NCBI GenBank assembly: GCA_021613535.1
Contig: CP075496.1
Span: 806,001-870,000 of the forward strand
Direction: 5' to 3'
Length of the DNA: 64,000 bases
From: Adineta vaga
Taxonomy: Eukaryota; Animalia; Rotifera
The notes beneath the pieces were generated by a model. The model was not told where the DNA came from, made no database searches, and was given only the letters and a program-made list of their open reading frames with translations. This document shows, piece after piece, positions 1,246 to 49,134 of the stretch. Numbering within the stretch: position 1 is the stretch's first letter; each line of letters opens with the position of its first letter. The translations under genes were made by a program, and so were the position numbers.

Positions 1246-1257
1246 GTTATCGATACA

Positions 1258-14583: not shown

Positions 14584-15200
14584 ATGAATAAAGGTATTAA
14601 TATTCGAAATGCAAGTTTTCACTATATTTATACTCGAAATCATACTGAAAGTAGAACATTTCAAGGTATAATCGATGATTTACCACGGTTAGTTTACAAT
14701 TTTTCTTCAAAATTTCATTCATTTAATCATTCATTTAAATAGAATTGCTGGAATGGGAGTTGATTTCGTATGGTTACTTCCAATTCATCCAATTGGAAAA
14801 ACAAATCGTAAAGGAACACTTGGTTCACCCTATTCTATTGATAATTTTCGTGAAATAAATCCTGAACATGGAGATTTAAATGATTTTCTTCGTCTTATTT
14901 CTGAAGTTCATCGTTATGGAATGCGTTTAATGATTGATATTGTTTTTCGACATACAAGTCATGATTGTCTATGGGTTAAACAACATCCTGAATGGTATTT
15001 AAGAGATGAAACAACATTATGGATTGAATTGATTGATATTTTAAAATATTGGTGTCAATTAGATGTGGATGAATTTCGAATGGACGTTGCATCTGGTGTT
15101 ACAATGGATTTTTAGTTAATATTTCTTATTTAGAAAAAGCACGTCATCTCTAATTTATTTTAGACGTCAAGCGAGAAAAGAAGTATTAGCAACATATTCA
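14584..15200 (+). pseudogene. Truncated duplicate of the GH13 alpha-amylase-family gene
   Basis: Exon 1 and exon 2 match 18438-18864. It has a 126-bp internal deletion, GVDGFR->DVDEFR, TGG->TAG at the exon 3 end, and similarity ends ~15200. Confidence 0.88.
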
Positions 15201-16397
15201 AATAATACTTAAATAATTTTATATCAAGCATAACAGAACTTCAGATTGAAAACAAAAAGTGACTCAATCCATTAAATATCTCAATAACTGATTATACTCA
15301 GTTATCGACGCTGTTTCTTATGGAACTTGAAGTATTCAAGGGTTCAATTGGGCTAGTTTTTTAATCAACTCATCGAAAATAGTAAAAATTTAGATTTAGG
15401 CAAAGTTTTGAACATCAGCGATCAACATATTCATATCTGATCGAAAAGGTAAAATTTGGTCAATGTTTTGATTTCTAGATCAATCTATGAATCTTCTCTT
15501 CGATTCTTATGTTGACAAAAAAGTATTAAAAGAATTCATTGTAACGGTTCATATAAATTTATATGATCATATGTTGTATTTATTGACAAAAGAGAAAATC
15601 ACAATATTGAGATTCTACCATACAAGAATTTACATCGAATGAGGAAACAGAATAAACAATGTGTATACATCAAAGGAAAACTTATCAAGTTAAACAATAT
15701 TGACATGAGGAATATGATATGAGTTTGATTCTGTTTGTCATCGTATTTGAACATAATAGAACACCACTTGCTAATTTTGTCAATGTACGGTTTTACGAGC
15801 AGTCGGATTGAACATTTTTCAGAATGTGATACGGCCGAAGCAGATCTGTTGTTGCAATTGAATGTCAACTGTTGACCTTGAGTAATTTATATTGATCCTA
15901 GTTGATTTATAAAGTATCATGTCGAAGAAAGCTACTGCAAAGATAGTTGTCCTAATTACCTAAACAGAAAAAAATGTAAAAGACTATATAAAGTAAATGC
16001 AATTAATATACGCACTTTTTCATTCAATGTTAAAGCATAAAAATTCAATGTCGTGATGATTTCCGTAATGAAAACACGAAAATACCATTCCTATAATAAA
16101 AAAATCCGACAATCATACATCTGGATATATCTTACCAATTTACTATATAAATATCCATTAATTTCATTAACTTTCTTTCTTTTCAATTGATATAATCTAA
16201 TGAATTTAGTTGTTCCGATAATGACAGAATAAAGAAGGATGACAATGGAATAAACAATACTTATTATCCGAAACAATCTGGTCGTTGTCCAATTGAATTT
16301 CGATACATCAAACACTGTCCAATGAAATACATGAAAGAAAATTAATGTAATGTGGCAATAAGTGTCTGAATGATTCAGAAAAGTATAATAAAAACAA

Positions 16398-16674
16398 CCC
16401 AGGTCGAACGATGCGGTCCGTATACGGCCTTTACGATATAAAAACGGATACTATACTGGCCGTAACACTGACCGTATTATCGGGCGCAGTAATACGGTTC
16501 GTTCTGTATCCGTACATAGCCAAAAAGTAGCCGTTTCGGAGGAGAATACAGTGCGTTTACGATGCCGTAAATCTGTGCCCGTGATTACGGAACAAAACGG
16601 TTCACTTTCGGCCGTAAAGTCACCGTTTACATTCCGAAAACGCATTGTAAACGACTCCGTTTTCATTGACCTAG
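16398..16674. mobile_element. Short GC-richer MITE-like repeat with CCCAGGTC...TTGACCTAG ends and internal ACGG/CCGT subrepeats
   Basis: Abrupt GC island in AT-rich DNA, imperfect terminal inverted repeats, and many tacgg/ccgta motifs in both orientations. The overlapping ORF is probably spurious. Confidence 0.65.
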
Positions 16675-17539
16675 AAAATGACAATCAAAAAATGAACTTA
16701 CACTAGGTAAAACATATGATATAATATACGTAAGTTGTCATGACTCATGACAAATTTTTCTTCTTGTTCTCGACACATAAGTCACGATTTAAGTCAGTTA
16801 CTCGTTCTTTGTAGCTAATGATCATTTCATACAGAGAAAAGGATTGCTGAGATCATAAGACTATGTCGAATGCACATCTGAAATCCGTTTTTCGAAATTC
16901 GGTTTCATGCATGAGCTGTAAAGCTTTAAAAAATGATTATTAATAGCTAGTAGTTTACTTATATATTTATATACATGACTCAACATTCGAATGATCATTA
17001 ATATGATCTTTTGCGTATATGTACTTCAATTATTGATTCACAACTTAAATCCACGAACGAGTCTCGGATGTTTAGAAAAACTTTCCATGGCTTATAAGGA
17101 TAGAATACGAAGTGATAATAAACAGCTGAGAGCTTTCTTATATGGTGATACACTGATTCAGATTCATTATCTCTCACAACAAGTCGAGCAGGTATATCTA
17201 AACACAATTGAAATTCATCACCATATCTCCTCCACACAAGTGTTAAATTTAGATTTAATATACATAGCTCTTTTGAAATTTATATAAATGAACAGTTCAC
17301 AATATCTATGACAAAGAGTAGAGTGAGTTGTCAGATGATCAGAACTTGTGTCTTTAAATATTAGGTTAAATAATAAAAAATATGTTAAGATAATAACTAA
17401 ATAAATTCATATTGGATTTGTTTTGAAAAAAATGCAAAGGCATTGAATAAATCTTTATAATTTGAATCATTTTAATGAATATAAACACCTAATTGTATTG
17501 ATCGTATAATAAAATTCAAACAAAAAATTAAATTTCTAA

Positions 17540-17640
17540 AAGCATTATTTGACTCAATTAATAAAATATATTTGAAATATTTCAATAAGAATTTCATCAG
17601 ATAATAATTCAAATCGACTTAAAAGAAAAAAATGCTTTCA
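17540..17640 (-). pseudogene. Remnant of the F-box gene 5' region (degenerate copy of 13090-13205)
   Basis: The reverse complement reads FFLLSRFELLSDEILIEIFQ then degrades. agaatttcatc..taataattcaaatcgacttaaaagaaa is shared with 13149-13190. Confidence 0.7.
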
Positions 17641-17692
17641 TCAATAAATCATGCGATATATATGGACATCGTATATTCTTCTTCTTATATAT

Positions 17693-18182
17693 TCAAAATA
17701 AATGCGGAAACTTCGAACTTTATCCGAAAGTAATGTGTACTACAAAAAGTGTATGAGACCGAAGAAATAGGAAAATATCAGCATTCTTCGATAACTAAGG
17801 AATGACTCGTCCAATCATACTCATCTTCAAACTCGAGCGCGCTATTAATGTGACAATACTGTGTAGAAAATTTCATCACAATTCGATTAAGCTTTCAGAA
17901 GTTATCATCTACAAGAATGGATGAACGAACACACTGATCGATTCTGATAGCACACTTACTGGGGGCGTGCGTGAGGCTAAATGAAATAAACTCTCATAAT
18001 CATCGCACCCACACCATTGGCCTTTTTCTAGTGCAATCATAGTTGAAGTTTAGTGACATTAATTATCTTGTAACCACCTTGGGTGAGATTTCACCCAGAT
18101 CATCCTTATCCATCGCCTACTCGTGTGCCACCACACATTGACCGATTCTAGTAATGTACTCACTTTTTAAGTACACAAAAAG
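17693..18182 (-). mobile_element. Second HINE/DINE-1-like element copy with different internal filler
   Basis: The reverse complement begins ttttgtgtacttaaaaagtgagtacattactagaatcggtcaatgtg and ends ctcatacactttttgtagtacacattactttcggataaagttcgaagtttccgcatttatt, matching both ends of 181-1245. Confidence 0.7.
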
Positions 18183-18437
18183 AAAAACATACTTTCACAT
18201 AAGAAATTAGCGATTTAAATGGAAATATCTAAAATAATTTTTAAAATAATTTGTGTACATATATTTTACATTTTTATATTACAAAAATCTTCGTTTATCG
18301 GTGGACATTCATAGAAGACAGAGTCATCTATTTACAAAGTTTTTCTTATTCGATTATTTTAAACTTATCTCTAATTAACCAATAATATCATTCATTTAAC
18401 TTTCGAATACTTTTATAAATTATTTTTCTCAAGTAAA

Positions 18438-20120
18438 ATGAATCGAGAAAACGTTCGCAATGCAACTTTTTATTGCATTTATACACGAAATCATTCTGAA
18501 AGTGGAACATTTCAAGGTATAATCGATGATTTACCACGGTTAGTTTACAAATTTTCTTCAAAATTTCATTCATTCAATCATTCATTTAAATAGAATTGCT
18601 GGAATGGGAGTTGATTTCGTATGGTTACTTCCAATTCATCCAATTGGAAAAACAAATCGTAAAGGAACACTTGGTTCACCCTATTCTATTGATAATTTTC
18701 GTGAAATAAATCCTGAACATGGAGATTTAAATGATTTTCTTCGTCTTATTTCTGAAGTTCATCGTTATGGAATGCGTTTAATGATTGATATTGTTTTTCG
18801 ACATACAAGTCATGATTGTCTATGGGTTAAACAACATCCTGAATGGTATTTAAGAGATGAAACAGTTCGTTTAATCTTTTTTTTTATTTGAAATTTAATT
18901 TAAACATTTCTTTTGAAAAAGGGAAAACCAATTGCACTTGTACCTGAATGGTCTGATATCTTAGATTTACAATTCGAAGGAAATGAAACAACATTATGGA
19001 TTGAATTGATTGACATTTTAAAATATTGGTGTCAATTAGGTGTGGATGGATTTCGAATGGATGTGGCGTCTGGTGTTACAATGGACTTTTGGTTTGTATT
19101 TCTTATCTAAAAGAACATTTCATTTCTCATTTGTTTTAGGCGTCAAGCAAGAAAAGATGTATCAGTCAAATATCCAAATAATATTTGGTTAGCTGAATCA
19201 ACTCGATTACCATATATTGAAAGACATCGAGCTAAACGTGAAATAGTTAATACAGATTCTGAATTATATGAAGTATTTGATCTCTGTTATGATTATGATA
19301 TTTATGGACCATGGCGTGCAACAGTTGCAAATGCAATACCAATAAAATCTTATCTTGAAATGGTTCGATTACAATCAACAATTTATCCAAAAGATTTTAT
19401 TAAATTAAGATTTCTTGAAAATCATGATCAACAACGTGTTTCATATATTTTTCGAGATAATCGTTTAAAAACATTAGCATGGACAGGTGAGTCACAAGAT
19501 TTTCATATTGATTGTTAAAAAAAAAACAAGATAAACTTTGTTTATTTTTAGCATTTAGTTCATTTTCAAAAGGTTGTTTTCTAATTCATGCTGGTCAAGA
19601 AACTGAACAAATAAAAACTTCATCATTATTCGAAAAAGACTGGAATGATTGTAAAAATATTTATCCATTACAAGAATATTTTCATCGATTAATTCAAATA
19701 AAAAAGAATGACATTATTCAATCAGATAAATCAAAGTAAAATTTAAAGAAAACAAAAATTTATTTTCTATTCTCTTAGTTTATTTTCAATAGTTTTATAA
19801 TCACTGAACATAATCCATGTATTGTTATAATTTGGGAAAATGAATTTGATAAACAAGGTCTTATCGGAATATTTAATGTTTCACAAACGAATGAAGAAAA
19901 TATTCAAATTAAAAATTTACCTGATGGAAATTATGAAAATCTTTTATTTAATTCCGAACTAAAAGATTTAATTCAATGTAAATCTTCAACAATCAATGTA
20001 TCAAATGATGGTAGAATATCTATTCCATCCGTTGCATTAATTCTTCATTATTCGGGTTTTATTCTTCGACCACAAATGTTTTATAGTGAATTATTTGATT
20101 TTAATTATAAAGGAATGTAA
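18438..20120 (+). CDS. GH13 alpha-amylase-family glycosidase of bacterial type, six exons
   Basis: Exons 18438-18538, 18594-18864, 18922-19091, 19140-19486, 19552-19735, 19793-20120, all phase-compatible. Catalytic motifs GVDGFRMDVA (nucleophile D), WLAES (acid/base E), FLENHDQ (D). Bacterial-style WLLPIHPIG..RKG.LGSPYSI. No signal peptide. Confidence 0.9.
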
Positions 20121-21301: not shown

Positions 21302-22260
21302 ATCTTTTTTTTTCTATTACGAAATAAGTTTAATAACAATTATTTGAAACCTTTTGTATTCTATAGAGAAGAAAGAAATGTAAAGTTTATTTATATAAAT
21401 ACTGACACATATAATCTATAGGCACATGGTGAATTCAACCTATTTTTCCATAATTCTCAATAATGTTTACCATTGAAATCAGGAAGGAAAAAAAATTGAA
21501 AAGAAAGCAAAGAGAAGAAAAAAACGAGATTTTGTAATAAAATGATTGTTTTTCGTTGTCGATAAGCAACATACCTTTCGATTTCATACAGTAAGAATAA
21601 GTTATATAATTGAATCTTGTTTAAATCTGATTTCTTGAAATTAATCAATCTATTATCGAATATGTGAGTCATTCGATCACGTTGATTCTTTCTCAATCAA
21701 ATTGAAATTTTTTGTATTCGAAAACAATCGATTGTAACTAAGAATTTGTTTTTCAAGTAACATCAAAACAATGAGATGCATTATGAGAAAGAAAAAGAAA
21801 ACAAATATTTATCTAAACGATTAATTCGATGTTTAAACAGAAAAAAAAGAAACGTTTTTCGATCATAAATTATTTCAGTGATAATTATCTTTCATAATAT
21901 CTTTTTCTTTTCGAATGCATGATTAGATAAGAAAATAAGATGAAAATTCTTTCGATTTACAATACAATATGATAATTTATATGAATTAATGTTTCAATGC
22001 ATCTTTGTTTTTTATGAATGAATTTTATAGCGATTTAGGTTCACTTTGAGTTCATTTAAACGAAATCTCTATTATTTCGTGACAACAGATATTCAAATGA
22101 GAATGTCTCAATAATACCTTCAACTTATTATATCGTATCTCTGCTTTTGTTATTCAAAGGTATGTAGAAATATGTGTGCAATGAAGCACAACTTCGAAAT
22201 CATTGATGTGAATAAAATGAATTAGACACTTAACAATAATACATTATACGAAATAAAGTA

Positions 22261-23030
22261 ATGACTTCAATAGCTCCAGCTGCTCCAAGATTATCTACAA
22301 TAACTATTGAATCTGTACATAAACCACCGCCAGAATTGATCGAAGTTCCACCTGAAATTCTTTCACAAATCGTAAATGTTGAAGAAAATTCTGATGAACC
22401 GACAACAATATTCAAACGAATTTCGAGATGGATGAGAATTTTTTTGAGAAAATTTCATGGCTTACATGAAGAAAGACCAAAACGTTTACCATGGCATGAA
22501 TATGTATGGAGTTTTCTTGGTGCATTATTAGGTATTGCAGCTGTGTCATTTCTTCATTTTCGTTTATTAGATAAGTAAATATAAATTCATCTTCTTATCA
22601 ATACAAATAATTATAATGTTTATTTAGACATGAATTATTATTTTTAATTGGTTCATTTGGTGCATCGGCTGTTCTAATATTTGGTGCACCACGTTCTCCA
22701 CTAGCTCAACCTCGAAGTTTAATTGGTGGTCATGTTTTAAGTGCCATATGTGGTTGTACAGTACGTGTAGCGATTGATCAATTTGAACATTCGACTGCAT
22801 GTGCTTTAGCTGTTGCTATTGCGATTATAGTAATGCAATTGACTGAAACAGTTCATCCACCTGGTGGTGCAACTGCTCTACTAGCAGTTACAACACGACC
22901 TCTTCTTCCTGGAGCACATTTTCTATTTATAATTATGCCTGTTCTTACTGGTGCAACGACAATGTTATTAATTGCATTAATTGTGAATAATTTAGCACCT
23001 AAAAGAACTTATCCCAGTTTTTGGTGGTAA
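22261..23030 (+). CDS. HPP-family integral membrane protein
   Basis: Exons 22261-22574 and 22628-23030 (phase 2). Motifs LIGSFGASAVLIFGAPRSPLAQPRSLIGGH, TVHPPGGATALLAV and NNLAPKRTYPSFWW. Confidence 0.92.
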
Positions 23031-27412: not shown

Positions 27413-27538
27413 CGCACCCACACCCTCAACCACACCCACACCCACACCCTCACCCTCACCCTCACCCTCACCCACACCCTCACCCACACCCACACCCACA
27501 CCCTCACCCTCACCCACACCCTCACTCACGCCCACACC
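27413..27538 (-). repeat. Interstitial telomere-like tract of mixed (TGTGGG)n/(TGAGGG)n hexamers
   Basis: About 20 tandem CCCACA/CCCTCA units on the + strand. These are the hexamers reported for bdelloid telomeres. Confidence 0.8.
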
Positions 27539-27649: not shown

Positions 27650-29400
27650 CTACTTTAAACCAGATTGTTCATAATTATTCGAGTTATATAAAAATGAATT
27701 GGTTTCTTCATAGTTTATATGCAATTGTACAAAGATGTTCCCATCTCTTACATATGGCGAATTGGGTTTCGTTAGCTTTTCAGTCGCACAAAAACGAGGA
27801 ATTTGATATGGTGGATTTGTAGCGTTTTGTGGCTTATCAAATATTGCAGATTGAGAGTCAGGAGCAATCCAATGAAATATATCATTTTTTTCGCCAGATA
27901 AATCCATAAGACTGATTTTAATCGAATAAGGAAATGGCCAAAACAGAATTGCGTCATAGTCTCCACGAAAAATCGCAAATGAAATTTGAATATATGGGAT
28001 GTTAGTATATTCATCCATTCTTGAACTGACAGTGAATCCAAACCTATACCCAAACTGCGTGGATTGAATTGGACCAGATTGTACGGTCGGTAACTCATCA
28101 TTTAATAGAACCATTAGAGCAACTTTTAGTAAAAATACGTCATTACTATCCATTACCTTAACACTGGTGTTATTTTTGTTTTGGATATCCTCGATTAGTT
28201 TATTCATTGCACTGAATATTTCCTCAATATTTTGCCTAAGCTTTATGATATTAGCATGTGGTTCATTATTTTTCCTCAATTCTTCCCATATTTTCGCGCA
28301 TACTGTTTCCATCATTTGTCGTTTGGAATTAACGTCATTACAATCATTACTTACCAGTAGAATTTCTTGTATTATAGACTCCACTCTTTGTTGATATTCC
28401 TCTAAATTATGTTGATTTTCTTCCTTGATGCGATTTTGCAATGCAAAAATCCCACTCTCATCATTCTCATCGATACACAATTGTTCAACACAAGACAAAA
28501 CAGAATTTTGATGTTCATTTGATAAACGATGTTGTTCACTTTTGGAATATGGGATCTAATAGTAAAAATCAATAGTAAGTGAACGATTCTATTAACGTGA
28601 CTTTGACGGTTTCGTGCGAAAGTGTTGACGTCACGAATTGGATATTAGTTTTTTAGACTGAAAGTTATTTAATATTTATCCTTGAGTCATGCGAGTGACT
28701 TTGTATCGTTCATATAATAGAATATCCAGAATCATTCAAATAGTTTTAAAGATATTATAAGTATGTCAAAGTTATAGGTACCTAAATTGATGGATTTAAA
28801 TACTGATAATTTACCTTATTGGAACATCCATAGTCCACTAGTGGACATGAAACGGTGCGATGTATACACCTATATTGTTCATGAAATTCTAGTTGAAATT
28901 TATTAACAAACGCTTTTTTACAATGTATACATTGTAATTCAGCGTGTGTTTCGAGATGTTTCTAAAAGATATTTATATTTTATAACAAAAGTTAGTTTTT
29001 CCTAGATAATTATACTCGTAAGTCTTTTAGGAGACCCTTCCAACTTGAACCACATTCAGAACAATTTATTTCTTCTTTTTCTATTTCACGCCTATAGCCT
29101 TGATCAAGGGTGGTCTAAATATTGATTATACCGTTAGATTTAATAGAATCAATGTATTATAATTATCCTACATCTGGTTTTACAAAAGAGCAAGATGGGC
29201 ACTTCCATTCAGTATCTCTAAAATAGTAAGTTGGATTGAATCTATTCAGATAGAATAATTGATCAATATTACTTGTCGAACTCTACGCATGCACCACATA
29301 TCCGCTCACCGCAGCAATTCAGTTGGTAGGGTGGATAAAGCTGCCAAAAGCATCGACGACATAACCACTTTTCATACTTCTTATCCGCTACATCTGACAT
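27650..29400 (-). CDS. TRAF-family protein (RING, TRAF zinc fingers, coiled coil, MATH domain)
   Basis: About five exons. RING WLCRRC..QLYPPYQLNCCGERICGAC...WKCPSC; LDQGYRREI....INCSEC..WKG; Zn finger CIHCKK...HEQYRCIHRTVSCPLVDYGC; MATH GYRF...ISFAIFRGDYDAILFWPFPYSIKISLMDL. Confidence 0.88.
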
Positions 29401-31034
29401 TCGGCTGGCTATGTATAAAGCAAAGGAGGCGTTGTCATGATTTATATAACGACGAAGAAAAACCAAAAATTTTCCAACATAAAACCGATAAGGGATGTGA
29501 AGTGGCGTCCGCTTCGTGTTTTTTCACACACTGAGAACGATAGAAAAGTTTCCTTTTAAAGAGCTTTGAGACTGGTGAAAGCAAAGGCTCAAAATTGTAT
29601 GAATGAGCTATGAAGTTCTCGTATCAGGTTATGTTTAGTATATGGCCCTCATCTATCAACAGATCAATCTCAATTCACTAACTTCACTTCCATGCCCATT
29701 TATAGATTCTTGTACTATAATATCTATATCTACACTAACCCAAACTCTAAAAATACTATAATACTTAAACTTTCGTTCACCCACACCCATTACATAATCA
29801 TTCTATGCGTTGCATAGTAATGTTAAATATATTCTTTTTCTCATTCGATGACTTAGTGCACAGCAAACATGTTTCGTTTCATGAGATGAATCATAGTTGG
29901 AAATAATAACAGTAACAAACAGCATTAGGATAAAGGTATGAAATAAACTATTGAGAAAAGCTTTATAAACTTACACAAGGTAGACGGTTGACGTTCTTTC
30001 CAAGTTTTCGAAAACAAAAAATGACTACATGGTATCCTTTAGGTTAATTTTTTCCAACTTATACTTACTTGGAAAATTCCAACTAAAATATTTATCCTAT
30101 TACTCATACATGCTTTGTATTTATGTTTTCTCATAACAACGCTATCGATACTTCAAAAAAAAACATAAGAGACCTACTTTTTATTAACTTTATTTCCAGT
30201 AATTTCATAATTACAAATTGACAAAATGAATTAACTTATTTACGTAGGCAACTCAATGAAGATTTTGTGAATGTTATGAAAAAGAGAAGTGCGAGACATT
30301 CCTTTGATTTTGAATACAAACAACTTGATCATATTCGATATAACAGATCCATTGTTGATTCTAATTAATTTTTATTATAATCAACATTTGATATCCTAAT
30401 TATTCATATATTTCTCAAGAAAAGGAGTCTATTTTTAGATAAAGTGTTATGAAAAATAAAACAATATTATTGTCCTTGTGCCCAGACGACATAAGTAAAT
30501 ATAAGATAAAATAAAAATGCAAAAAAACGAATACTTGATTATACATTACGATCAATGAAATCATCAAAAGAGTGACATAAGTTTTATTTAATATTAATTC
30601 TTCATTGATTTTCAAAGATTCTTATTCCTTAATGATCAAATTACAAAAATAAAACATTTCTTTTCGACATTCTATCAGCAAATAATATCTTAAGAAAAAG
30701 AAATTATGTAAATTTTATTTCCAACTTCTATATTCCTTGAAAAGAAATATTGTTTGATATATATTTATTTATTATTTTCTTTATTGCAATCATTTCGAGG
30801 AAAAAACAGCCAAGAAACATAATATTCGACGAAAAGTCTATTTACTATGGTTTGCCTTTTTCAGCGAAGAACCTGACATTCTCGCAAAAAACCGCTATCC
30901 TTTTAAAATGAAGCATTTTCATCATTGTTCTACGAGACTGTCGAGAAAATTTTCTTTGCTTCTTTCAAATTCTTTTAATACAAAAAGAACAATAGGAAAT
31001 AAATGAGCGCTTGACTTTTTCGAATCTATTAAAT

Positions 31035-32246
31035 ATGTTAACAACTTTTTTATCGATTGTAATTTATTTATTTTTCTTATATTATACAATTGAAAAATGG
31101 AAAATCATTTGTCGTCCATCAGTTAATGATACAAATGATAAATCATCTAATAATATTCAATATATTCCATTAGATAATTCACATGATGAATTAATCGATG
31201 ATCTTAGTGATTCTATTGATATTCATAATAATGATCAACAAATAACTTCTTGGTACGATAGTCATTTAGATAAATCATCTGACCAAGAGGTATCAGATTT
31301 AACACATGATACAAGTAAAGAGGATGCTTATGTACCGAAATCATTAGACTTAGAAGATTCGATATATGATGATTTTGAACCGATATCATCATTACACCAG
31401 AATAATGATGAAGAATTCGATTATTTTTCATTAGAAAAAGTTTCATCTAATCAACTTCCACCAGGTATTATTAAAAAGAATTATTCATATTCAGATCAAA
31501 TTAAATTAATTCAATTATATCAAAGTCATCACATACACGATACAAAACAATTATTTCAATATCTTGCACAACAAATTCATCATAGATTAACAAATTGTGT
31601 TTTTAATTTTGGTAAATGGTTAACTAATCCTCAATTAGATGAACCAATATTTTATCGAAATTGTGTTCCTTGTACAAATGCTGTTGATCTTAATCTACAA
31701 AGTTTATTTGATCATATTAATCAAAATAAAAAATTAGAACATTATTTTGTCAATACTTGTGATAAACAAAATCAATGGATTTCATATATTAGTGATATGA
31801 AATATTTATCAAATAATTTAAAAAATATTTCATCATTATATTTTACAGATATTATACGAAAAGATCTTCTTCCTAATCAAAGGTTCAAATTTCTCTATCA
31901 AAAAAAAAAAGATTCGTATTTGATAATATATCTATTTAGATATGTTTTTCAAGGTATTGTTAGATCTAATCATGGAAATAATCAGAAAGGTTTTTTTCAT
32001 GTTTGTAATTTAATAAATGATGAAAATGATCATACATGGATTATTGATGGACAAATTGAAAGAGTTTTTTATCTAAATAATACAGATGATGTTAATAAAC
32101 TTAATCAAAGATATCGTCCAGATTATATTGCACGTGCTCAAACTGGATCATTTCGACCTTCAACAATTGTCAAATCTCAAGAATCTTTTCAACATCAACT
32201 TGAATCTGAAGATGATTCAATTGATATATCTAGTTTGATATATTGA
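31035..32246 (+). CDS. N-terminally membrane-anchored papain-fold toxin-like protein (Tox-PL / glutamine-deamidase type)
   Basis: Hydrophobic N-terminus LTTFLSIVIYLFFLYYTI, acidic low-complexity linker, then RNCVPCTNAV ... GIVRS..GFFHVCNLI....TWIIDGQ. This is the NCxxC / HxxN / DxQ Cys-His-Asp pattern. One in-frame 57-bp intron at 31883-31939; ~384 aa. Confidence 0.7.
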   Translation: MLTTFLSIVIYLFFLYYTIEKWKIICRPSVNDTNDKSSNNIQYIPLDNSHDELIDDLSDSIDIHNNDQQITSWYDSHLDKSSDQEVSDLTHDTSKEDAYVPKSLDLEDSIYDDFEPISSLHQNNDEEFDYFSLEKVSSNQLPPGIIKKNYSYSDQIKLIQLYQSHHIHDTKQLFQYLAQQIHHRLTNCVFNFGKWLTNPQLDEPIFYRNCVPCTNAVDLNLQSLFDHINQNKKLEHYFVNTCDKQNQWISYISDMKYLSNNLKNISSLYFTDIIRKDLLPNQRFKFLYQKKKDSYLIIYLFRYVFQGIVRSNHGNNQKGFFHVCNLINDENDHTWIIDGQIERVFYLNNTDDVNKLNQRYRPDYIARAQTGSFRPSTIVKSQESFQHQLESEDDSIDISSLIY

Positions 32247-32621
32247 ATCGAATTCTAATGATTATCAGAAATGACTTCAACATATTCGATATTAATTTTA
32301 GTTGAAAACAATTGTAAATCATTTGTTATAATGTTTAGTTGTAGTGTGATGATCGATTATTCTTTCTTTGTCATTCTTTCATCGACGCATTTCCAGCTGT
32401 CCAACTCAAATAGATAATCGTCACATAAATGAGCGCCATCTCTTTATTTCTTCACTAACTGCATGATATCATACAATAATGGAACTAGTGTCGTCTTTCA
32501 ACTGACCACAACCACAATTAGACTAATTAGGCAGCATTATTCTTCTTTTCTCTAGACAAAAATCAGTCGAATAAATTCATTGAACAAGTTTTATTTCATT
32601 TTATTTCCATTTTTTTTCAAA

Positions 32622-33468
32622 ATGACGTGTTTATCTTTCACAGATATATTTTTGAATGCTATGCATTTCAACGACGATCAAGGGCTTTTACGACGAACAT
32701 GTAGTTTATTCTGCCCTCAATTTTATGATAATCAAATTCGATATTTTACAGTTGGTGGATATGCATTGATATTTCATCGATTCGTACGAAATACGATGGA
32801 TATTGACATAGTGGTGCACGAAGATGATTTCCAGAAAGCTACCGAAGTAAGTAAACTGAATTTTTATAATAAGTTCAAGGAAAAGAAAGTTTCCTAATTC
32901 AACTGATTGTTATCATTAATTATAAAGATTTGTCTGATATGTTTTAGATTATTATTGCCGCTGGTTTCGACAAAGTTCTTGGTGATGGATTGTGTGCAAG
33001 GTTTAATCACAAGTATTACTTGTCGGTCGATATTCTCACAGCACCAACATATGGTCCTATTCCAAATGAACAAAATCGAATTAATGATCGAGGAATATTT
33101 TTTTGTGATTTTCCAAGTGAGTATCTCAACACTATAATATTGTATACAATATTTGACATTTTTTTAGTATTGGTTTTGACTAAATTAAATGCATATGCTG
33201 GTAGGCCAAATACAAATAAAATGTTATATAAAAAATCACAAGGTAAGGTTCAGGTGTAATGAATAAATGTTCACTTCAGTTTTATTTTGATTTAGATCGT
33301 ACGGATTTGATTTATTTAATAGAAAATAATGATTTGGATGAAGATTATGCAAAGAATAATCAATTTGGTTCTTTTGCTGAATGTGTTTATGAGAAATTAC
33401 ATCGTGATATGTATAATGAAGTGAAGCCATCAAATAGTAAAAAGAAACAAAAATGCTTGTGTCAATAA
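32622..33468 (+). CDS. Pol-beta-superfamily nucleotidyltransferase of AbiEii/DUF6036-like type with C-terminal polybasic CaaX motif
   Basis: Exons 32622-32846, 32948-33116, 33168-33242, 33296-33468 (213 aa). Motifs VGGYALIFHRFVRNTMDIDIVV, VDIL, and KLNAYAGR...KSQDRTDL. Ends SKKKQKCLCQ*. Confidence 0.8.
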
Positions 33469-34198
33469 ATTGTGATTTCCTTTATATATCTTGTTTGTTT
33501 TTGTGTATTATGTCTGATATACAAGTTCTTTTTTTCTCTTCATCTCATCAGTCTTTCTTACTCTTGTCCATGTAGATAACTTTTCGATTTTCTATTTTAT
33601 TTATCTTTAATATTAGCTCAAATACTATTCTATAACTTATATTGTTTCATGTTGTGTTGTTTAAAAAAATGTGATATTATCAATAAACTAATGGATCAGT
33701 AGTTGTGGATTCGGATGTGAATGTATCTTTTTTGAGCCAATGCCCATATCTCATATTTCTTCTCTGCAGCTGGAAGGAAATCATTACTGTTGATAATGTT
33801 TTGTGTAGAAAAGAAATTTCAAAGTTTTATATATCCTAATTCATTTATATTCGGACTCATAGTTACAGTTTTAGCCTTGTAATTACATCATCATCATAAT
33901 TATTATTTGTAACTTCGTTATGAAAACGTGTATTCATATATCATTTATAACATTTTATGAATAATACAATAGAGATATGCAAAACAAAGATACTAAGGTA
34001 TTATCGATTAAAAAATCAAAGAAAAACAATGGATTTGATAGAAATAAGCATACGATCAGAATTTCTAGTATTCTAATTTATTCTTTTTGATGAGAAAAAA
34101 AGAGATTGTTAAAAGAATGACAAGCTGATAGATAAAATACGAATGTGTTCTTATGTATATTTTGCATAAGAATAATTAAAACATCTTCGACGAGTCTA

Positions 34199-34753
34199 TT
34201 AAGATTTCTTTACGAATTCGTGGATTGAATCATCACATGCACCCTTTATACCTTTGGGAAATAAAGTATCAACGACTTTATTTCGATGAGCTGTTTCTGT
34301 CTCCACTAGTTTTTCAATCTGTTCGATCTCTGAATCCTCTAACTTCATAGATCGACCTAATCGATAAACTGCATTTCGTTCTTCTTTATGTAAATCACCA
34401 TCAGCACTAGCTGCTTGAATTGCTTCAAATATAATTGCTCGAGATACTTCGTGAGCAAATGTTGGTCTTACATCCAATGTTGCATCAATTTCTGCTTTAC
34501 TTGGATTATAATTTTTGAAAAAAGTATACATATCATCAGAACCACCTTTGGCTAAGAAATTACCTAAAATCCATTTACGTTCTTCATCAGCTAAAACACC
34601 ATCAGCTGCAGCGACATTCATTAATATCTTTGTATATTCACAAACAAGCATATTACTTGGTCTCATATCACTGTGCCAAAAGTGTTTGAATATCCAATCA
34701 CCAACGACATCACGTAGAGTGACAGTACTTGCGGTTGTTAATTCCTTTGCCAT
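34199..34753 (-). CDS. TerB-like (tellurite-resistance/stress-family) protein
   Basis: Intronless 184 aa with two TerB-type helix-loop motifs: ILMNVAAADGVLADEERKWI and AIQAASADGDLHKEERNAVYRLGRSMKL. Confidence 0.8.
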   Translation of the reverse strand: MAKELTTASTVTLRDVVGDWIFKHFWHSDMRPSNMLVCEYTKILMNVAAADGVLADEERKWILGNFLAKGGSDDMYTFFKNYNPSKAEIDATLDVRPTFAHEVSRAIIFEAIQAASADGDLHKEERNAVYRLGRSMKLEDSEIEQIEKLVETETAHRNKVVDTLFPKGIKGACDDSIHEFVKKS

Positions 34754-35284: not shown

Positions 35285-35357
35285 GCCGCGGTGGCTCAGT
35301 CGGTAGAGCGTCAGTCTCATAATCTGAAGGCCGTGAGTTCGATCCTCACCCGGGGCA
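35285..35357 (+). tRNA. tRNA-Met (CAT), elongator type
   Basis: GCCGCGGTGGCTCAGTCGGTAGAGCGTCAGTCTCATAATCTGAAGGCCGTGAGTTCGATCCTCACCCGGGGCA folds as a cloverleaf with anticodon CAT and TTC in the T loop. An oligo-T terminator follows. One G4:G69 acceptor mismatch. Confidence 0.93.
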
Positions 35358-35438
35358 GATTCCTTTTTTTTTTCATTGATTTTGTTAATGATATAAGTAA
35401 CAGATGTTTCAATGATTATTTTTTTATTTTTCGAAATC

Positions 35439-35834
35439 ATGTCAAGTAAAACGAACGGACCAATTTTACAAATTGATCGTCTTATAATTGATCCGAAAAA
35501 TCCCATAAAACCTAAATCTGTTCGTTCGGGTAAATATTCTCTCATATTAATTTAATGACTGAAAAATCTTTTTGCCTTTTAGATGTTTCACCTTCATCAA
35601 CAATTCGAAGTTTTTTAAATCAATCATCTGAAGAATCTCATTTCTTTTTTCCATCAAATCAAATAAAAATAATTCGTCTAACACTTGAAGATTTACATAA
35701 CAATAAATCCGTATCTGTATGAAATCATTTTAACAAAAACTAAATTAGTTTTAATCGAAATATTTTATTCATAGAATTTAGTTCGTTCTCCAATTTATGA
35801 ATCAATTGATGAAAAACAAAGAAATATTAAATGA
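35439..35834 (+). CDS. Small three-exon hypothetical protein (~94 aa), absent from the ORF track
   Basis: Exons 35439-35529, 35583-35716, 35775-35834 with GT-AG introns and matching phases (1, 0), giving an open frame MSSKTNGPILQIDRLIIDPKNPIKPKSVRSDVSPSS...PIYESIDEKQRNIK*. Confidence 0.6.
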
Positions 35835-39869: not shown

Positions 39870-40133
39870 GAACTGAGTACGATTTCTTTATGAAAGATAT
39901 AGCAGAATTTGTTGAACTGAGTACGATTTCTTTATGAAAGATATAGCAGAATTTGTTGAACTGAGTACGATTTCTTTATGAAAGATATAGCAGAATTTGT
40001 TGAACTGAGTACGATTTCTTTATGAAAGATATAGCAGAATTTGTTGAACTGAGTACGATTTCTTTATGAAAGATATAGCAGAATTTGTTGAACTGAGTAC
40101 GATTTCTTTATGAAAGATATAGCAGAATTTGTT
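39870..40133. repeat. Perfect 44-bp minisatellite, six copies
   Basis: Unit gaactgagtacgatttctttatgaaagatatagcagaatttgtt starts at 39870, 39914, 39958, 40002, 40046 and 40090. No spacers. Confidence 0.95.
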
Positions 40134-40379
40134 GAATTGACGAAGAATAGAAATATTCTATTTATCTCTTTTCTTATTTATTATTATCTGCTTATGATTA
40201 GTCCACAAACGAGACAAGAAAGAAGAAGAAAAAGAGAAAAAAAGAAACGGTAAAAAAAACATCTTTTATCATCAGTTGAAGGAGTTTTAACGAAATAAAC
40301 ACAAACAAAAAAAACGTCATCGTAGATCGAGTTTATCTAATAGGATAAAGACAACAAAAAAAAATCGTTTTCTTGTCAC

Positions 40380-43682: not shown

Positions 43683-45204
43683 TTAGAATCGACCAACTGT
43701 TTCAATGATCTTTTTCTTTGTTTCTTCAGCATTTTTACCTTGATCAACTTGTCTCGACATATCACATAATATACATTCTAAACTATAATTACGCATAGCT
43801 GAGAAATAATTTAACATTTTCTGAAAGTTTTCAGCAACTGGTTCATTTCTCCATTGATGATAACTTTCATATAATGTTCGATTCATTGCTACTTTCTTAA
43901 TAAACAATGCAGCATCTTTCGGTGTTGCAAACTTTCTTAAATCAATAATACAATCAGTTCGACAAGGTAACCAATCATCAACATTCGGTGCACCAAGATA
44001 AATCGGAACACTTCCAGCAACAAATGTATGCCAAAGTTTTTCAGTTATATAATCATGATTTATACTATTTTCAATGGCGATTGTAAATAAATAATCACTT
44101 GTTAAAGCTAATTTTCCAGCTTCCCAATCATAAGTTGCACGATTTTGTAGATTCTGATTAACTGATCGTTGAAGTTTCACAATATGATCGGGTAATGGTC
44201 GAATATTCTTTCCACATGTTCCGAAATTATCAACATCGATATATTGCATTAAATTTTGTACATATGGAGTTCGTTGTGATTTTGTATGACAATTACTATT
44301 CATCCAAAGAATTGGTGCTTTAACATAAGATTCTTTACTCGAATTCTACAAAATATTCATAAAAGATTTTTCTCCAAAATCAATGACTTACTGTTTGTAA
44401 ATTCATCCAATTTGAAGAAGAATTAATTGTTTTTTTCTTTTTCATAACTTCTTCTAAGGAAAGTCTTTTCGGTGTTTTAGTAATCGAATCGACATAATTA
44501 AAAAGCCATGGCCAAGGAATAAATTCATAAATCGATCGATCATAACCATAAGTAACATTGAATAATCTTAATTTATCTTTGTCAGCAGCTGTTGGATAAT
44601 TACTAATCGATTCAAAATTAAATATTAAACCCCACATACTATTTTGACTTCGATAGAGATTATTTAAAACATCAACATATAATTCATTCGAAATTGATGC
44701 ATATGAATCGGCAATAATCGATGGATATGATAAATCATTCGAATCCTTGTGAAATAAATCCAATGCATATCCAACTTTACAAGTAAAATCCGATTTATAC
44801 TCATTATTTCGTACAATTCTTCCACCATTTAAACATTTTATATCATCAAAAGATCCAGCAGATGAATAAATCATTAGACAAGGCAATCGTGAACAGGAAC
44901 GAATGTTATATAATCGACAAAGAGTTTTAGCTAAATGATTTAATTCTTCAGGAATGTCACACCATAATTGACGATCAATTTTCGATAAAATATCATCTCG
45001 TTTAACAAAGATATTCCATTGTGGAAGACTAAAGATATATTTAACTGTTTGATTATTTGTTTGTTTGAAAATTTCATGGGCATTTGTTTTAGGTTTATTA
45101 TCAAGAAAGAAAATTATTAAATAAATATGAATTAATAATAGAATTAGAATTATTAATGAAATGATTTTCCAAAACGATCGTTTTCGACAACAAGAATTTT
45201 TCAT
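43683..45204 (-). CDS. Alpha-1,3-fucosyltransferase (GT10), tandem copy 1
   Basis: Type II TM anchor, one intron at 44346-44391, motif FTIAIENSINHDYITEKLW..FVAGSVPIYLGAPN. Confidence 0.9.
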
Positions 45205-45448
45205 CTAAATAAAAATAAGAATGAAAATGACAAAAAAATATATCGTAAAATAAAAAAGAAGAACTGAAAGTATCTGATTGGTGTGTTCTTTCATTCATTT
45301 ATAATATAGATACATTTATCATTGATATGTCACGCAAATATTATAACGAACGTATGACATATGAAAAAAAAGAGAACAAAATGAAACAAAAATCTGTTTC
45401 GACATTTTTATAATCAAGTTTATTCAATATTAATTTTATATGAGAACA

Positions 45449-47022
45449 TTAAATTCGTCCAACAATTTCACTGATCTTTCTTTTTGTTTCCTTCGAACTT
45501 TGACCTCGATCAACTTCTCTCGACATATCACATAAAACACATTCTAAACTATAATTATGCATCGATGAAAAATAATTCAACATTTTCTGCAATTTTTCAC
45601 GAATTGGTTCATTTCTCCATTGATGATAACTTTCATATAATGTTCGATTCATCGCTACTTTCTTAATAAACAATGCCGCATCTTTTGCTGTTGCAAATTT
45701 TCTTAAATCAATAATACAATCAGTTCGACAAGGTAACCAATCTTCAATATTCGGTGCACCAAGATAAATCGGAACACTTCCAGCAACAAATGTATGCCAA
45801 AGTTTTTCAGTTATATAATCATGATTTATACTATTTTCAATTGCAATTGTAAATAAATAATCACTTGTTAAAGCTAATTTTCCAGCTTCCCAATTATATC
45901 GAGCACGATTTCGTAGATTTCTTTCCGTTGAACCTTCAAGTTTGATAATATGTTCAGGTAATGGTCGAGTATTTGTTCCACATATTCCGAAATTATCAAT
46001 ATCAATGAATTTCATCATCTTTGTTACATATTCAGTTCGTTTTGATAACGTTCGACAATTACTATTCATCCATAGAATTGGTGATTTAACATATGATGAT
46101 TCGCTTGATTTGTTTTCTCCAATAGAATTCTAAACATTTATTGGAATTTCTTTTTCAAAAAAACTCTTTCACTTACTGATGGTAAATTCGTCCAATAAAT
46201 CTCTTTGTTTGACGCAACGTTGATCGGTTGTTTATTTTTCATCACTTGTTCTAATGAAAGCCTCTTTGACGAATCAATGATTCGATCGACATAGTTCATT
46301 AACCATGGATCAGGAATAAAATCATAAACAGATCGATCATAACCAAAACTCACATCGAATAGTTTGAGTTTTTCTCGATCACCAGTCCAAGGATAATAAC
46401 TAAGCGATTCTTCTTTGAAATATACTCCCCACATACTATTACAACTTCGATATTGATTATTCAAAATTTTCACATATAAATCATTTGATATTGGTGAAAA
46501 TGGATCTGCAATAATCGATGGATAAGATTGAGTTTGTGAATCTTTAAGAAACAAATCTAATGAATAACCACGAATGCATTGAAAATCTGGTTGAATTTCT
46601 AAAGATTGATTTGTTCGGATTATTCGTCCATTTTTCAGACAATTCAACTTGATCAATGAATCGGTTGATGAATAAATCAAATGACAAGGTAATCGATTAC
46701 ATTGAAATTGAAATGAATTATATAATCGACAAATAGCATTTGCAATGATTTGTAATTCTTGTGGAACATCACACCATAATATTTGATGTTTATTCGAGTA
46801 AAGTTGATCTTTTGCTAAGAATTTTCTCCAAGATTGAAGATTAAAAATATATTTAATTGTTTCATTTCGTGTTTGATTATTGATAAAATCACATGGAATG
46901 ATTTTTGTTTGAATATAAATGAAATCTTTTTGAAAATAAATAATTTGACTTGAAATTATCAAACAAACACAAGAAATAAAAAGAAAAAAGATTTTCTTTT
47001 TATTATTTTTCATAATTTTCAT
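45449..47022 (-). CDS. Alpha-1,3-fucosyltransferase (GT10), tandem copy 2
   Basis: Type II TM anchor, one intron at 46130-46176, same ENS..DYITEK / GSVPIYLG motif. Confidence 0.9.
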
Positions 47023-47572
47023 AATCTAAAAAAACAAACTAGAATTTTATTCAATTGATTTGTTTTTCCTTCGATTCACAGCAACAATAGAATTCGATGT
47101 TTAGATGAATTCTTTTCATTCTATTAATATCATGACGTCATTGAATATTTACTTTCTCGTACATCTTCTTTCGTTCTCTCAGACGAATATTTGTGAAATA
47201 TCATTCTTATGTACGATTGAAATAAACGAGAATATCATGTAAAAATTCATATTTTCTAAATAGTATAGAACGTGATTTAAAGTACAAAATTTTATGCAAA
47301 CTAACAAAGAAAACATATGAAAAGTAAGTTTTTAACAAATCAAATCATTCATTTTTATTTAGATAGATAATTTGTTTCAATAACCATGAGTTTATTCTGA
47401 AAATTATCGTTTTAATCAAACAAGATCAAACTTCTTCTTCACTTTTAAACATTATACAGAATATCGGATAACATTAATTGAATATTCTTTTTCTTTCCAT
47501 ACGAAATCTTTAGCAATAACAATAACGTATATTTCTTTAAAGGCAGAAAAATCATCAATAATCACCACAACA

Positions 47573-49134
47573 TTAAATTCGTCCAACAATTTCAATTATT
47601 TTCTTCTTTGTTTCTTCCGAACTTTGACCTCGATCAACTTGTCTCGACATATCACATAAAACACATTCTAAATTATAATTACGCATCGATGAAAAATAAT
47701 TCAACATTTTCTGCAATTTTTCACGAATTGGTTCATTTCTCCATTGATGATAACTTTCATATAATGTTCGATTCGTCGCTACTTTCTTGATAAACAATGC
47801 AGCATCTTTCGGTGTTGCAAACTTTCTTAAATCAATAATACAATCAGTTCGACAAGGTAACCAATCATCAACATTCGGTGCACCAAGATAAATTGGAATA
47901 CTTCCGACCAGAAGTGGTTGCCAAAGTTTTTCAGTTATATAATCATAACTAACACTGTTTTCAATTGCGATTGTAAACAGATAATTGTTTGTCAATTCTA
48001 ATTTTCCCGCAACCCAATTATAACTTCCAATGTTCTTAAGACTTTGATTAACTGAACCTTGAATTTCAGCAATGTGTTGGGGTAATGGTCGAATATCCTT
48101 TCCACATGTACCGAAATTATCAATATCAATGAATTTCATCATCTTTGTTACATATTCAGTTCGTTTTGATAAAGTGCGACAATTACTATTCATCCATAGA
48201 ATTGGTGATTTAACATATGATGATTCGCTTGATTTGTTTTCTCCAATAGAATTCTAAACATTTATTGGAATTTCTTTTTCGAAAAAACTCTTTCACTTAC
48301 TGATGGTAAATTCGTCCAATAAATCTCTTTGTTTGACGCAACGTTGATCGGTTGTTTATTTTTCATTACTTGTTCTAATGAAAGTCTCCTCGACGCATCA
48401 ATGATTTGATCAATATAATTCATTAACCATGGATCAGGAATAAAATCATAAACAGATCGATCATAACCAAAACTCACATTAAACAGTTTGAGTTTTTCTC
48501 GATCACCAGTCCAAGGATAATAACTAAGTGATTCGTAATTAAAATAAACTCCCCACATACTATTACAACTTCGATATTGATTATTCAAAATTTTCACATA
48601 TAAATCATTTGATATTGGTGAAAATGGATCTGCAATAATTGATGGATAAGATTGATTTTGTGAATCTTTAAGAAATAAATCTAATGAATAACCAAGTTTA
48701 CATTGAAAATTAGATTGAATATTCTTAATCTTTGTCTTGATTATTTGATAGTTTGAAGTACATTGAACATTGCTTATTGAAGTTGGTGAAGAATAAATCA
48801 AATGACAGGGTAATCGAGTACAGTTAGATACTTCATAGAATCGACAAATAGCATTGGCAATGATTTGTAATTCTTGTGGAACATCACACCATGATGTTTG
48901 ATGTTTATTCGAGTAAAGTTGATCTTTTGCTAAAAAGTTTCTCCAACGTTCAATCTGAAAAATATACTTGATTGTTTCATTTCGTATCTGATCATTAAAA
49001 TCACATTGAATTGTTTTGGGTTGAACGTCATCCATATGAGTACCAGTTCGATGAAGTAAAACTAAGGACGCCAGACTAGATAAACAAATAAGTGTGAAAA
49101 GAAATCTTCTTTTTTTTCTTTTGCGATTTATCAT
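47573..49134 (-). CDS. Alpha-1,3-fucosyltransferase (GT10), tandem copy 3
   Basis: Likely start MINRKRKKRRFLFTLICLSSLASLVLL (basic tail + TM), one intron, motif FTIAIENSVSYDYITEKLWQPLLVGSIPIYLGAPN. Confidence 0.9.

What the first reader, a model, noticed from the sequence alone, without database searches (positions are those of the whole stretch)
27650..34753. Candidate hybrid defence locus: TRAF adaptor next to three consecutive domesticated bacterial conflict-system genes
Seen: within 7 kb lie TRAF (-), divergently a TM-anchored papain-fold toxin-like gene (+), 375 bp later an AbiEii-like nucleotidyltransferase with CaaX (+), and a convergent TerB-like gene (-). All have open frames, and two have acquired introns and eukaryotic membrane-targeting signals. 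Known: Tox-PL domains are polymorphic-toxin effectors, and the papain-fold deamidase OspI blocks TRAF6 signalling by deamidating UBC13. AbiEii/MenT enzymes are abortive-infection/type IV TA toxins, and TerB domains occur in stress and anti-phage operons. Inference: a membrane-localised animal immunity or self-regulation module assembled from bacterial warfare parts around a TRAF ubiquitin ligase. Co-function is unproven, and chance clustering in an HGT-rich region is the null hypothesis.
Basis: partly seen in the sequence, partly recalled or inferred. Interest (0 to 1): 0.8.

Follow-up and report, generated by a model that had tools for sequence, protein, structure and literature searches.

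The report
Rotifer gene from a bacterial effector
The four neighbouring rotifer genes are real but do not stay together in other rotifers; the notable one is a gene likely taken long ago from a bacterial toxin/effector family, kept intact across bdelloid rotifers and predicted to encode a protein-cutting or protein-modifying enzyme sent to the secretory pathway.

Summary
The four-gene module is not supported. In 4 of 4 other bdelloid loci the nucleotidyltransferase and TerB genes are absent beside the papain-fold gene; in three of them tRNA-Met follows it by 102-146 nt, against 3,038 nt here. TRAF and the papain-fold gene are head-to-head in a distant bdelloid too, but as two of ten colinear genes. 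The three foreign genes point to different bacterial families.

The real find is the papain-fold gene. It is an intron-bearing bdelloid gene with an invariant NC-H-DxQ signature (13 of 13). A profile search of 1.84 billion proteins links it to a Tox-PL1/Gln_amidase clade (HH probability 99.5%). Its three named members are gammaproteobacterial, including the Shewanella SopD-Tox-PL1 protein. It gained a hydrophobic leader, likely a signal peptide. An acidic linker keeps a D/E-F-E-x-L motif resembling an ATG8-binding LIR, also enriched in the bacterial relatives (post-hoc test). The substrate is untested. NCBI's model fusing it to the nucleotidyltransferase is likely wrong.

The parts
27415..27538 (.). 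Interstitial telomere-like (CCCWCA)n tract just past the TRAF stop; L001 has three extra genes at this position
   Evidence: TGTGGG named as telomere motif in PMC11258130
27650..29400 (-). TRAF gene, 5 exons (29273-29400, 29172-29217, 29016-29114, 28815-28961, 27650-28555), 441 aa; RING-like domain lacks the usual His ligand
31035..31091 (+). Hydrophobic leader (residues 1-19) of the papain-fold protein: signal peptide or signal anchor, topology untested
31368..31385 (+). DDFEPI, LIR-like motif in the acidic linker (F 32 of 34, E 30 of 34, L/I/V 34 of 34 orthologues)
31035..32246 (+). Papain-fold Tox-PL1/Gln_amidase-clade gene, 384 aa spliced; predicted triad C210 (31662), H303 (31998), D319 (32046), plus Q321
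31883..31939 (+). 57-nt in-frame intron; an intron starts at the same codon position in 4 of 4 other loci
32622..33468 (+). AbiEii-clan nucleotidyltransferase gene, 4 exons (32622-32846, 32948-33116, 33168-33242, 33296-33468), 213 aa, polybasic CaaX-like tail
34199..34753 (-). Single-exon tandem TerB (COG3793-type) gene, 184 aa; polyA-like loose end at 34062 in one run
35285..35357 (+). tRNA-Met(CAT); follows the papain-fold gene by 102-146 nt in three other bdelloid loci

Best explanation
This is an old bdelloid gene block in which TRAF sits head-to-head with a bacterially derived papain-fold gene, and into which the nucleotidyltransferase and TerB genes were likely inserted later and separately, so the four likely do not act as one module. 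Shown: gene structures, the invariant NC-H-DxQ residues, homology to a bacterial Tox-PL1 clade, and absence of the two downstream genes from four other loci. Inferred: a gammaproteobacterial effector-type gene entered the bdelloid ancestor before the Adineta-Rotaria split and gained a leader, an intron and an acidic linker. It likely works as a Cys-His-Asp hydrolase or glutamine deamidase routed through the ER, most likely secreted, with the linker as a pro-region or docking arm. It would then not meet cytosolic Ubc13 or TRAF. The nucleotidyltransferase is likely a prenylated, membrane-bound NMP-transferase without an antitoxin (substrate RNA ends or small molecules, untested). TerB is likely a stand-alone metal-binding stress protein.
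For: Synteny: L001 keeps ten genes in the same order and strand, including TRAF(-)/papain(+), and has no nucleotidyltransferase or TerB match. L002-L004 have tRNA-Met 146, 129 and 102 nt after the papain stop, against 3,038 nt here. A. ricciae papain and TerB accessions are 11, 18 and 21 apart; R. socialis ones are at least 3,396 apart. Origin: of 30 profile hits, 16 are non-bdelloid-like with C/H/GQ aligned. Nine of these were looked up and three carry names: Vibrio pectenicida (UniRef 'Tox-PL domain'), Brenneria alni and Shewanella baltica. 11 of 16 hit Pfam Gln_amidase at E<=0.05, 2 above cut-off, and the Shewanella protein is SopD plus Gln_amidase, the architecture that PMC3482391 places in a type III secretion operon. 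Profile-profile probability 99.5%, E 2e-22, 183 columns. Bdelloid copies form one group, 100/99, with Adineta and Rotaria subgroups. TerB points instead to COG3793 structure 2OU3 (E 4e-26) and Streptomyces and Nostoc plasmid genes. The nucleotidyltransferase's Atlas neighbours (0.96) are AbiEii-clan clusters of other phyla. Leader: 12-16-residue hydrophobic core in most orthologues, followed by a small-residue site such as IQG/IEG in 20 of 30 by a loose pattern.
Against: L001-L003 fall in one clade of the gene tree and L004 was not placed, so loss in that clade is not excluded. Rotaria and A. steineri neighbourhoods were seen only through accession numbers. The A. vaga and A. ricciae leaders lack the small-residue site and are followed by K-W-K, so an uncleaved anchor is possible; no signal-peptide predictor was available. 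The fold model is poor (pLDDT 53): Foldseek found nothing at E<=0.001, and SpvD Z 6.1 (rmsd 4.7, 141 aligned) and OspI Z 4.1 are middling. No bdelloid copy hits Pfam Gln_amidase directly. The tree has no root and 13 of the 16 relatives are unnamed or were not looked up, so the donor is not pinned. GC3 does not cleanly date the genes: TRAF (0.28) is as far from the neighbours (0.07-0.11) as the nucleotidyltransferase (0.23) and TerB (0.20) are.
Confidence: 0.72

Rival explanations
1. The papain-fold protein is membrane-anchored with its catalytic domain in the cytosol, binds ATG8 through the D/E-F-E-x-L motif, and cleaves or deamidates ATG8 or another ubiquitin-like protein, keeping the ancestral effector's activity.
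For: The motif is a conserved island in a variable linker. LIR-like motifs occur in the flanks of 12 of 16 non-bdelloid relatives: 16 motifs against a shuffle mean of 3.6, 0 of 1000 shuffles reaching it; C-terminal flanks alone 6 against 1.0. RavZ, a cysteine protease effector, uses three LIRs (PMC11475232 passages). SpvD has deconjugative activity (PMC5207060 passages).
Against: The pattern was chosen after seeing the sequences and the LIR rule is recalled. Other spacings are also somewhat enriched (x1: 8 against 2.8; reversed: 8 against 3.5). Bdelloid copies share one inherited motif. Most orthologue leaders look cleavable, and other linker motifs (DAxVPxS) are more conserved.
Confidence: 0.2
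2. TRAF and the papain-fold gene form a functional two-gene pair sharing a bidirectional promoter; the enzyme tunes TRAF ubiquitin signalling as OspI does, and the other two genes are bystanders.
For: Head-to-head in two distant bdelloids, about 600 and 1,634 nt apart. OspI deamidates UBC13 (PMC10318531 passage) and is among the fold matches. TRAF is the fastest-diverging gene of the block (33% identity against 47% or more for most others).
Against: Eight other genes are equally colinear. No convincing conserved non-coding motif between the two starts (best E 0.01, A/T-rich). The leader points to the secretory pathway. The RING lacks its His ligand in both species, so ligase activity is unverified.
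Confidence: 0.12
3. The reader's four-gene membrane-localised defence module, assembled recently in Adineta.
For: TerB is next to or near the papain gene in A. ricciae too. TRAF, nucleotidyltransferase and TerB all have spliced or covering contigs in the same runs. Foreign genes are enriched among pathogen-induced genes in bdelloids (PMC11258130 abstract).
Against: Absent from 4 of 4 other loci. No A. ricciae nucleotidyltransferase among the 2 hits (weak search, 10 candidates). Different bacterial relatives, no antitoxin, and other unrelated indels in the same block (HPP gene, three fucosyltransferases). Runs of three foreign genes are expected by chance.
Confidence: 0.06
4. The papain and nucleotidyltransferase parts are one 573-aa two-toxin fusion, as in NCBI model I4U23_017389.
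For: The public model splices them together.
Against: All other full-length orthologues stop at 343-403 aa. The stand-alone homologue P0041 starts MTSLTFSDI, matching the window's own MTCLSFTDI start that the fused model skips.
Confidence: 0.04

Closest known systems
Tox-PL1 / Gln_amidase (PF15644) papain-fold toxins, including Shewanella SopD-Tox-PL1
   Same: NC-H-DxQ signature (PMC3482391 passage); colinear homology over about 180 columns
   Different: Animal gene with an intron, hydrophobic leader and acidic linker; no polymorphic-toxin carrier or immunity gene; the taxa listed for Tox-PL1 in that paper's table are bacterial only
Salmonella SpvD and Shigella OspI
   Same: Top and sixth fold matches; triad spacing C-H 93 and H-D 16 against 89 and 20 in SpvD
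   Different: 8-10% identity; those are injected into host cytosol; no shared substrate shown
AbiEii/MenT (DUF1814) nucleotidyltransferases
   Same: GG...RxTxDxD, KL/IxAxxGR and DxxD motifs; Atlas 0.96
   Different: Below all Pfam cut-offs, best to NTP_transf_5 and DUF6036; no antitoxin; three introns; polybasic Cys tail
COG3793 tandem TerB (PDB 2OU3)
   Same: Full-length profile match, E 4e-26; repeated ADG motif
   Different: No ter operon here or beside the Nostoc plasmid relative
Legionella RavZ and host ATG4 (works-like lead only)
   Same: Cysteine hydrolase with LIR-like motifs beside the catalytic domain
   Different: Different protease family; ATG8 binding untested; the ATG4 comparison is recalled
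Domesticated bacterial toxins in animals, such as tick Dae amidases and insect CdtB (recalled, no call)
   Same: Bacterial warfare gene that gained a signal peptide and intron in an animal
   Different: Different enzyme class; defensive role here is unshown

Membership tests
Tox-PL1/Gln_amidase papain fold | NC-H-DxQ signature | tested here: met
   N209, C210, H303, D319, Q321 invariant in 13 of 13 full-length rows; signature
Tox-PL1/Gln_amidase papain fold | Sequence homology to family members | tested here: met
   Indirect: profile hits E 1e-9 to 9e-4, 11 of 16 hit PF15644, HH 99.5%; no direct Pfam hit for bdelloid copies
Tox-PL1/Gln_amidase papain fold | Papain-like 3D fold | tested here: inconclusive
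   Poor model; SpvD Z 6.1, OspI Z 4.1; Atlas 0.88
Tox-PL1/Gln_amidase papain fold | Peptidase or deamidase activity | not testable with these tools
   needs assay
Polymorphic toxin system | Carrier domain and adjacent immunity gene | tested here: not met
   No such domains in the protein or its neighbours
AbiEii/MenT toxin | Four DUF1814 motifs | tested here: met
   Motif-like blocks conserved between window and P0041; four motifs described; exact patterns recalled
AbiEii/MenT toxin | Pfam AbiEii above cut-off | tested here: not met
   16.2 bits against 22.5 for P0041
Type IV toxin-antitoxin pair | Adjacent antitoxin gene | tested here: not met
   Neighbours are the papain-fold gene and TerB
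AbiEii/MenT toxin | tRNA 3' nucleotidylation, toxicity | not testable with these tools
   needs assay
TerB (COG3793 type) | TerB domain, tandem ADG motifs | tested here: met
ter operon or anti-phage TerB system | Partner ter genes or defence-model match | tested here: not met
   No partners; only weak PADLOC hits, E>=4e-4
TRAF E3 ligase | RING-Zn finger-coiled coil-MATH architecture | tested here: met
TRAF E3 ligase | Canonical C3HC4 ligands | tested here: not met
   CCGER here, CCGLR in L001; an adjacent Cys might substitute
Conserved multi-gene module | All four genes linked across species | tested here: not met
   0 of 4 other loci
Conserved multi-gene module | Co-induction | not testable with these tools
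   Only contigs could be laid; expression tables unreadable or cut
LIR-bearing ATG8 enzyme | Acidic [WFY]xx[LIV] motif that binds ATG8 | tested here: inconclusive
   Motif conserved and enriched; binding untested

The most novel reading that the evidence does not exclude
Bdelloid rotifers domesticated a bacterial injected effector that targets the autophagy protein ATG8, and keep it as a membrane-tethered regulator of their own autophagy or as a weapon against eukaryotic parasites; its bacterial relatives are an unrecognised family of LIR-bearing anti-autophagy effectors.
Probability: 0.2. Interest if true: 0.82.

Novelty: new variant of a known kind. Interest (0 to 1): 0.5.

Why it matters
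Most foreign genes studied in bdelloids are metabolic or biosynthetic. This one comes from a lineage of bacterial toxins and host-directed effectors and has been kept with its catalytic residues intact across Adineta, Rotaria and unnamed wild bdelloids. That suggests an animal turned an attacker's enzyme to its own use. It gives a direct test (enzyme assay, localisation, ATG8 binding) and points to an uncharacterised bacterial effector subfamily. The locus also shows how a run of foreign genes can arise by separate insertions and mimic a defence island. I found no paper on this gene in four full-text searches; subscription journals are not covered.

Tried and rejected
No whole genome is held, so TRAF copy number and the ohnologous region were not examined. 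RNA: no listed holder is on record as RNA. In the four runs laid, no contig covers the papain-fold gene apart from a 46-nt piece with loose ends on both sides, and none joins it to the nucleotidyltransferase; with contigs this shows neither silence nor absence of a fusion. Published expression: Nowell 2024 Supplementary Data 1 is too large to read and files 9, 11 and 13 were not searched; Moris 2024 additional file 2 is too large; the space-flight table is cut at 7,614 rows. These may bear on co-induction; matching FUN_ to I4U23_ numbers was my assumption. The single-sequence fold of the nucleotidyltransferase homologue failed (pLDDT 33). PDB sequence searches found nothing for the papain family or the nucleotidyltransferase. 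Donor hunts were empty: GTDB scans for TerB and nucleotidyltransferase, viral scans, plasmid and phage tblastn (one E 0.06 hit). The PF15644 search of one plasmid rang nowhere, controls included. No terminal repeats bound the insert. Earlier scan notes were empty. No complex prediction was run: adjacency was the only reason for TRAF, and no ATG8 or Ubc13 sequence was on hand. Rows dropped from counts: P0094 (match in a low-complexity region of an unrelated receptor-like protein); P0083-P0087 and P0101 were counted as bdelloid-like by score without viewing them; L004 and P0034 are not in the tree.
Full report
Setting. The window is bdelloid rotifer DNA; the top homologue is Adineta vaga model I4U23_017389. 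No whole genome was held, so comparison rests on proteins, four metagenome loci and four runs of assembled contigs.

Observation. All four genes are present as described. TRAF runs 29400 to 27650 in five exons (441 aa); two joints are seen in 4 of 4 runs and two in 3 of 4. Its MATH domain is nearest TRAF5/1/3/2 structures. Its RING-like domain lacks the usual His, here and in L001. The papain-fold gene (31035-32246) has one 57-nt in-frame intron, and an intron starts at the same position in 4 of 4 other loci. The nucleotidyltransferase (32622-33468, 213 aa) has three introns, each seen in 2 of 4 runs. TerB (34753-34199) is one exon with contigs in 4 of 4 runs.

The papain-fold gene. The search gave 34 homologues: nine named Adineta or Rotaria clusters and 25 unnamed environmental ones. 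N209, C210, C213, H303, D319 and Q321 are invariant in 13 of 13 full-length rows, matching the NC-H-DxQ signature of Tox-PL1 (PMC3482391, passages). Pfam does not detect it directly. The Atlas gives Gln_amidase, SpvD and OspI clusters at 0.83-0.88, a lead only. A poor model (pLDDT 53) gives no Foldseek hit, but SpvD ranks first by VIA (Z 6.1, rmsd 4.7, 141 aligned) and OspI sixth (Z 4.1). The decisive test was a profile search of 1.84 billion proteins: 30 hits, of which 13 are bdelloid-like, one is spurious and 16 are distant relatives at E 1e-9 to 9e-4. Three of nine looked up are named: Vibrio pectenicida, Brenneria alni, Shewanella baltica. Eleven of 16 hit Gln_amidase, two above cut-off; the Shewanella protein is SopD plus Gln_amidase, which the paper places in a type III secretion operon. 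The two alignments match at 99.5% over 183 columns with the triad in register. Bdelloid copies form one group on a long branch and split into Adineta and Rotaria subgroups. I infer one old transfer from an effector-type bacterial clade; the tree is unrooted and the donor is not fixed.

Leader and linker. Most orthologues start with a 12-16-residue hydrophobic core, and 20 of 30 match a loose small-residue cleavage pattern. A. vaga lacks that site, so an anchor is possible. Residues 46-135 are 22-34% acidic. They carry DAxVPxS and D/E-F-E-x-L islands (F 32, E 30, L/I/V 34 of 34). The second resembles an ATG8-binding LIR (rule recalled). Such motifs also flank the domain in 12 of 16 distant relatives: 16 against 3.6 in shuffles. 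Control spacings gave 8, 5, 9 and 8 against 2.8, 4.4, 4.9 and 3.5, so canonical spacing is the most enriched but not the only enriched one, and the test was post hoc. RavZ is the precedent for a LIR-bearing effector protease (PMC11475232, passages).

The other two foreign genes. The nucleotidyltransferase has one outside homologue among 10 candidates, P0041, which keeps the motif blocks and the tail NSKKKQKC[LI]CQ. The Atlas places P0041 at 0.96 with AbiEii-clan clusters; Pfam scores are below cut-off and include antibiotic-modifying transferases. DUF1814 proteins are not all linked to antitoxins (PMC7450476, passages), and none is here. TerB has five homologous clusters, including A. ricciae (70%) and Rotaria (44-52%). 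It matches COG3793 structure 2OU3 and Streptomyces and Nostoc plasmid genes at 25-31%.

Synteny. L001 (21 kb) shares ten genes with the window in order and strand, from the CH-domain gene to a transporter-like gene at 53-54.5 kb, including TRAF and the papain-fold gene head-to-head about 600 nt apart. It has no nucleotidyltransferase or TerB. In L002-L004 tRNA-Met lies 146, 129 and 102 nt after the papain stop; here the gap is 3,038 nt and holds both genes. A. ricciae papain and TerB proteins share longest-contig lengths (11,732 and 111,675) and have accessions 11-21 apart, while Rotaria pairs are thousands apart. So TerB likely moved here in the Adineta line, and the nucleotidyltransferase is seen here only in A. 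vaga. Caveat: L001-L003 belong to one clade. The block has other differences from L001: an HPP gene and three fucosyltransferases present only here, and three genes present only in L001 where the window has a telomere-like tract. About 16 runs of three foreign genes are expected by chance.

Mechanism and verdict. The best reading (0.72) is accretion rather than a module. The papain-fold protein is likely a Cys-His-Asp hydrolase or deamidase sent through the ER. The prenylated nucleotidyltransferase and TerB are likely independent. Rivals: cytosol-facing ATG8 enzyme (0.2), TRAF-papain functional pair (0.12), four-gene module (0.06), fusion protein (0.04); these overlap in part. Novelty: a new variant of a known kind, an animal-domesticated Tox-PL1 enzyme. 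Papers seen as passages or abstracts only: PMC3482391, PMC11258130 (plus supplement list and search), PMC10809525, PMC7450476, PMC10318531, PMC5207060, PMC11475232; PMC12220480 only through one supplement. Other papers were seen as search listings. Interest 0.5.

Noticed in passing
window 27415-27538: Interstitial telomere-like repeat where L001 carries three extra genes (RNA cap methyltransferase, unknown, LRR); possibly the scar of a healed chromosome break.
   Followed up: partly
window 31035-33468: Public model I4U23_017389 fuses two separate genes; likely an annotation error.
   Followed up: partly
window 29273-29400 and L001 9092-9265: TRAF RING-like domain has CCG[EL]R with no His ligand in both species; TRAF is only 33% identical between them and has GC3 0.28.
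   Followed up: partly
P0088-P0105: Uncharacterised bacterial Tox-PL1 subfamily with LIR-like motifs in N- and C-terminal flanks.
   Followed up: partly
window 43686-49323: Three tandem fucosyltransferase (GT10) genes with no match in L001.
   Followed up: no
window 22240-23027: HPP-family membrane protein gene, absent between the flanking orthologues in L001.
   Followed up: no
window 14693-20117: Two near-identical alpha-amylase-family gene starts (14693, 18544); looks like a local duplication.
   Followed up: no
window 1210-3133: Gene with a phage tail collar domain after a signal-like start.
   Followed up: no
window 30032, 32498, 25073, 25675: The same loose ends in three runs; likely repeated elements or structural variants.
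   Followed up: no
window 39870-40140: 44-nt tandem repeat, 6.2 copies, 99% identical.
   Followed up: no
window 35409-35816: Small conserved multi-exon gene of unknown function after tRNA-Met, also in L001 and L004.
   Followed up: no
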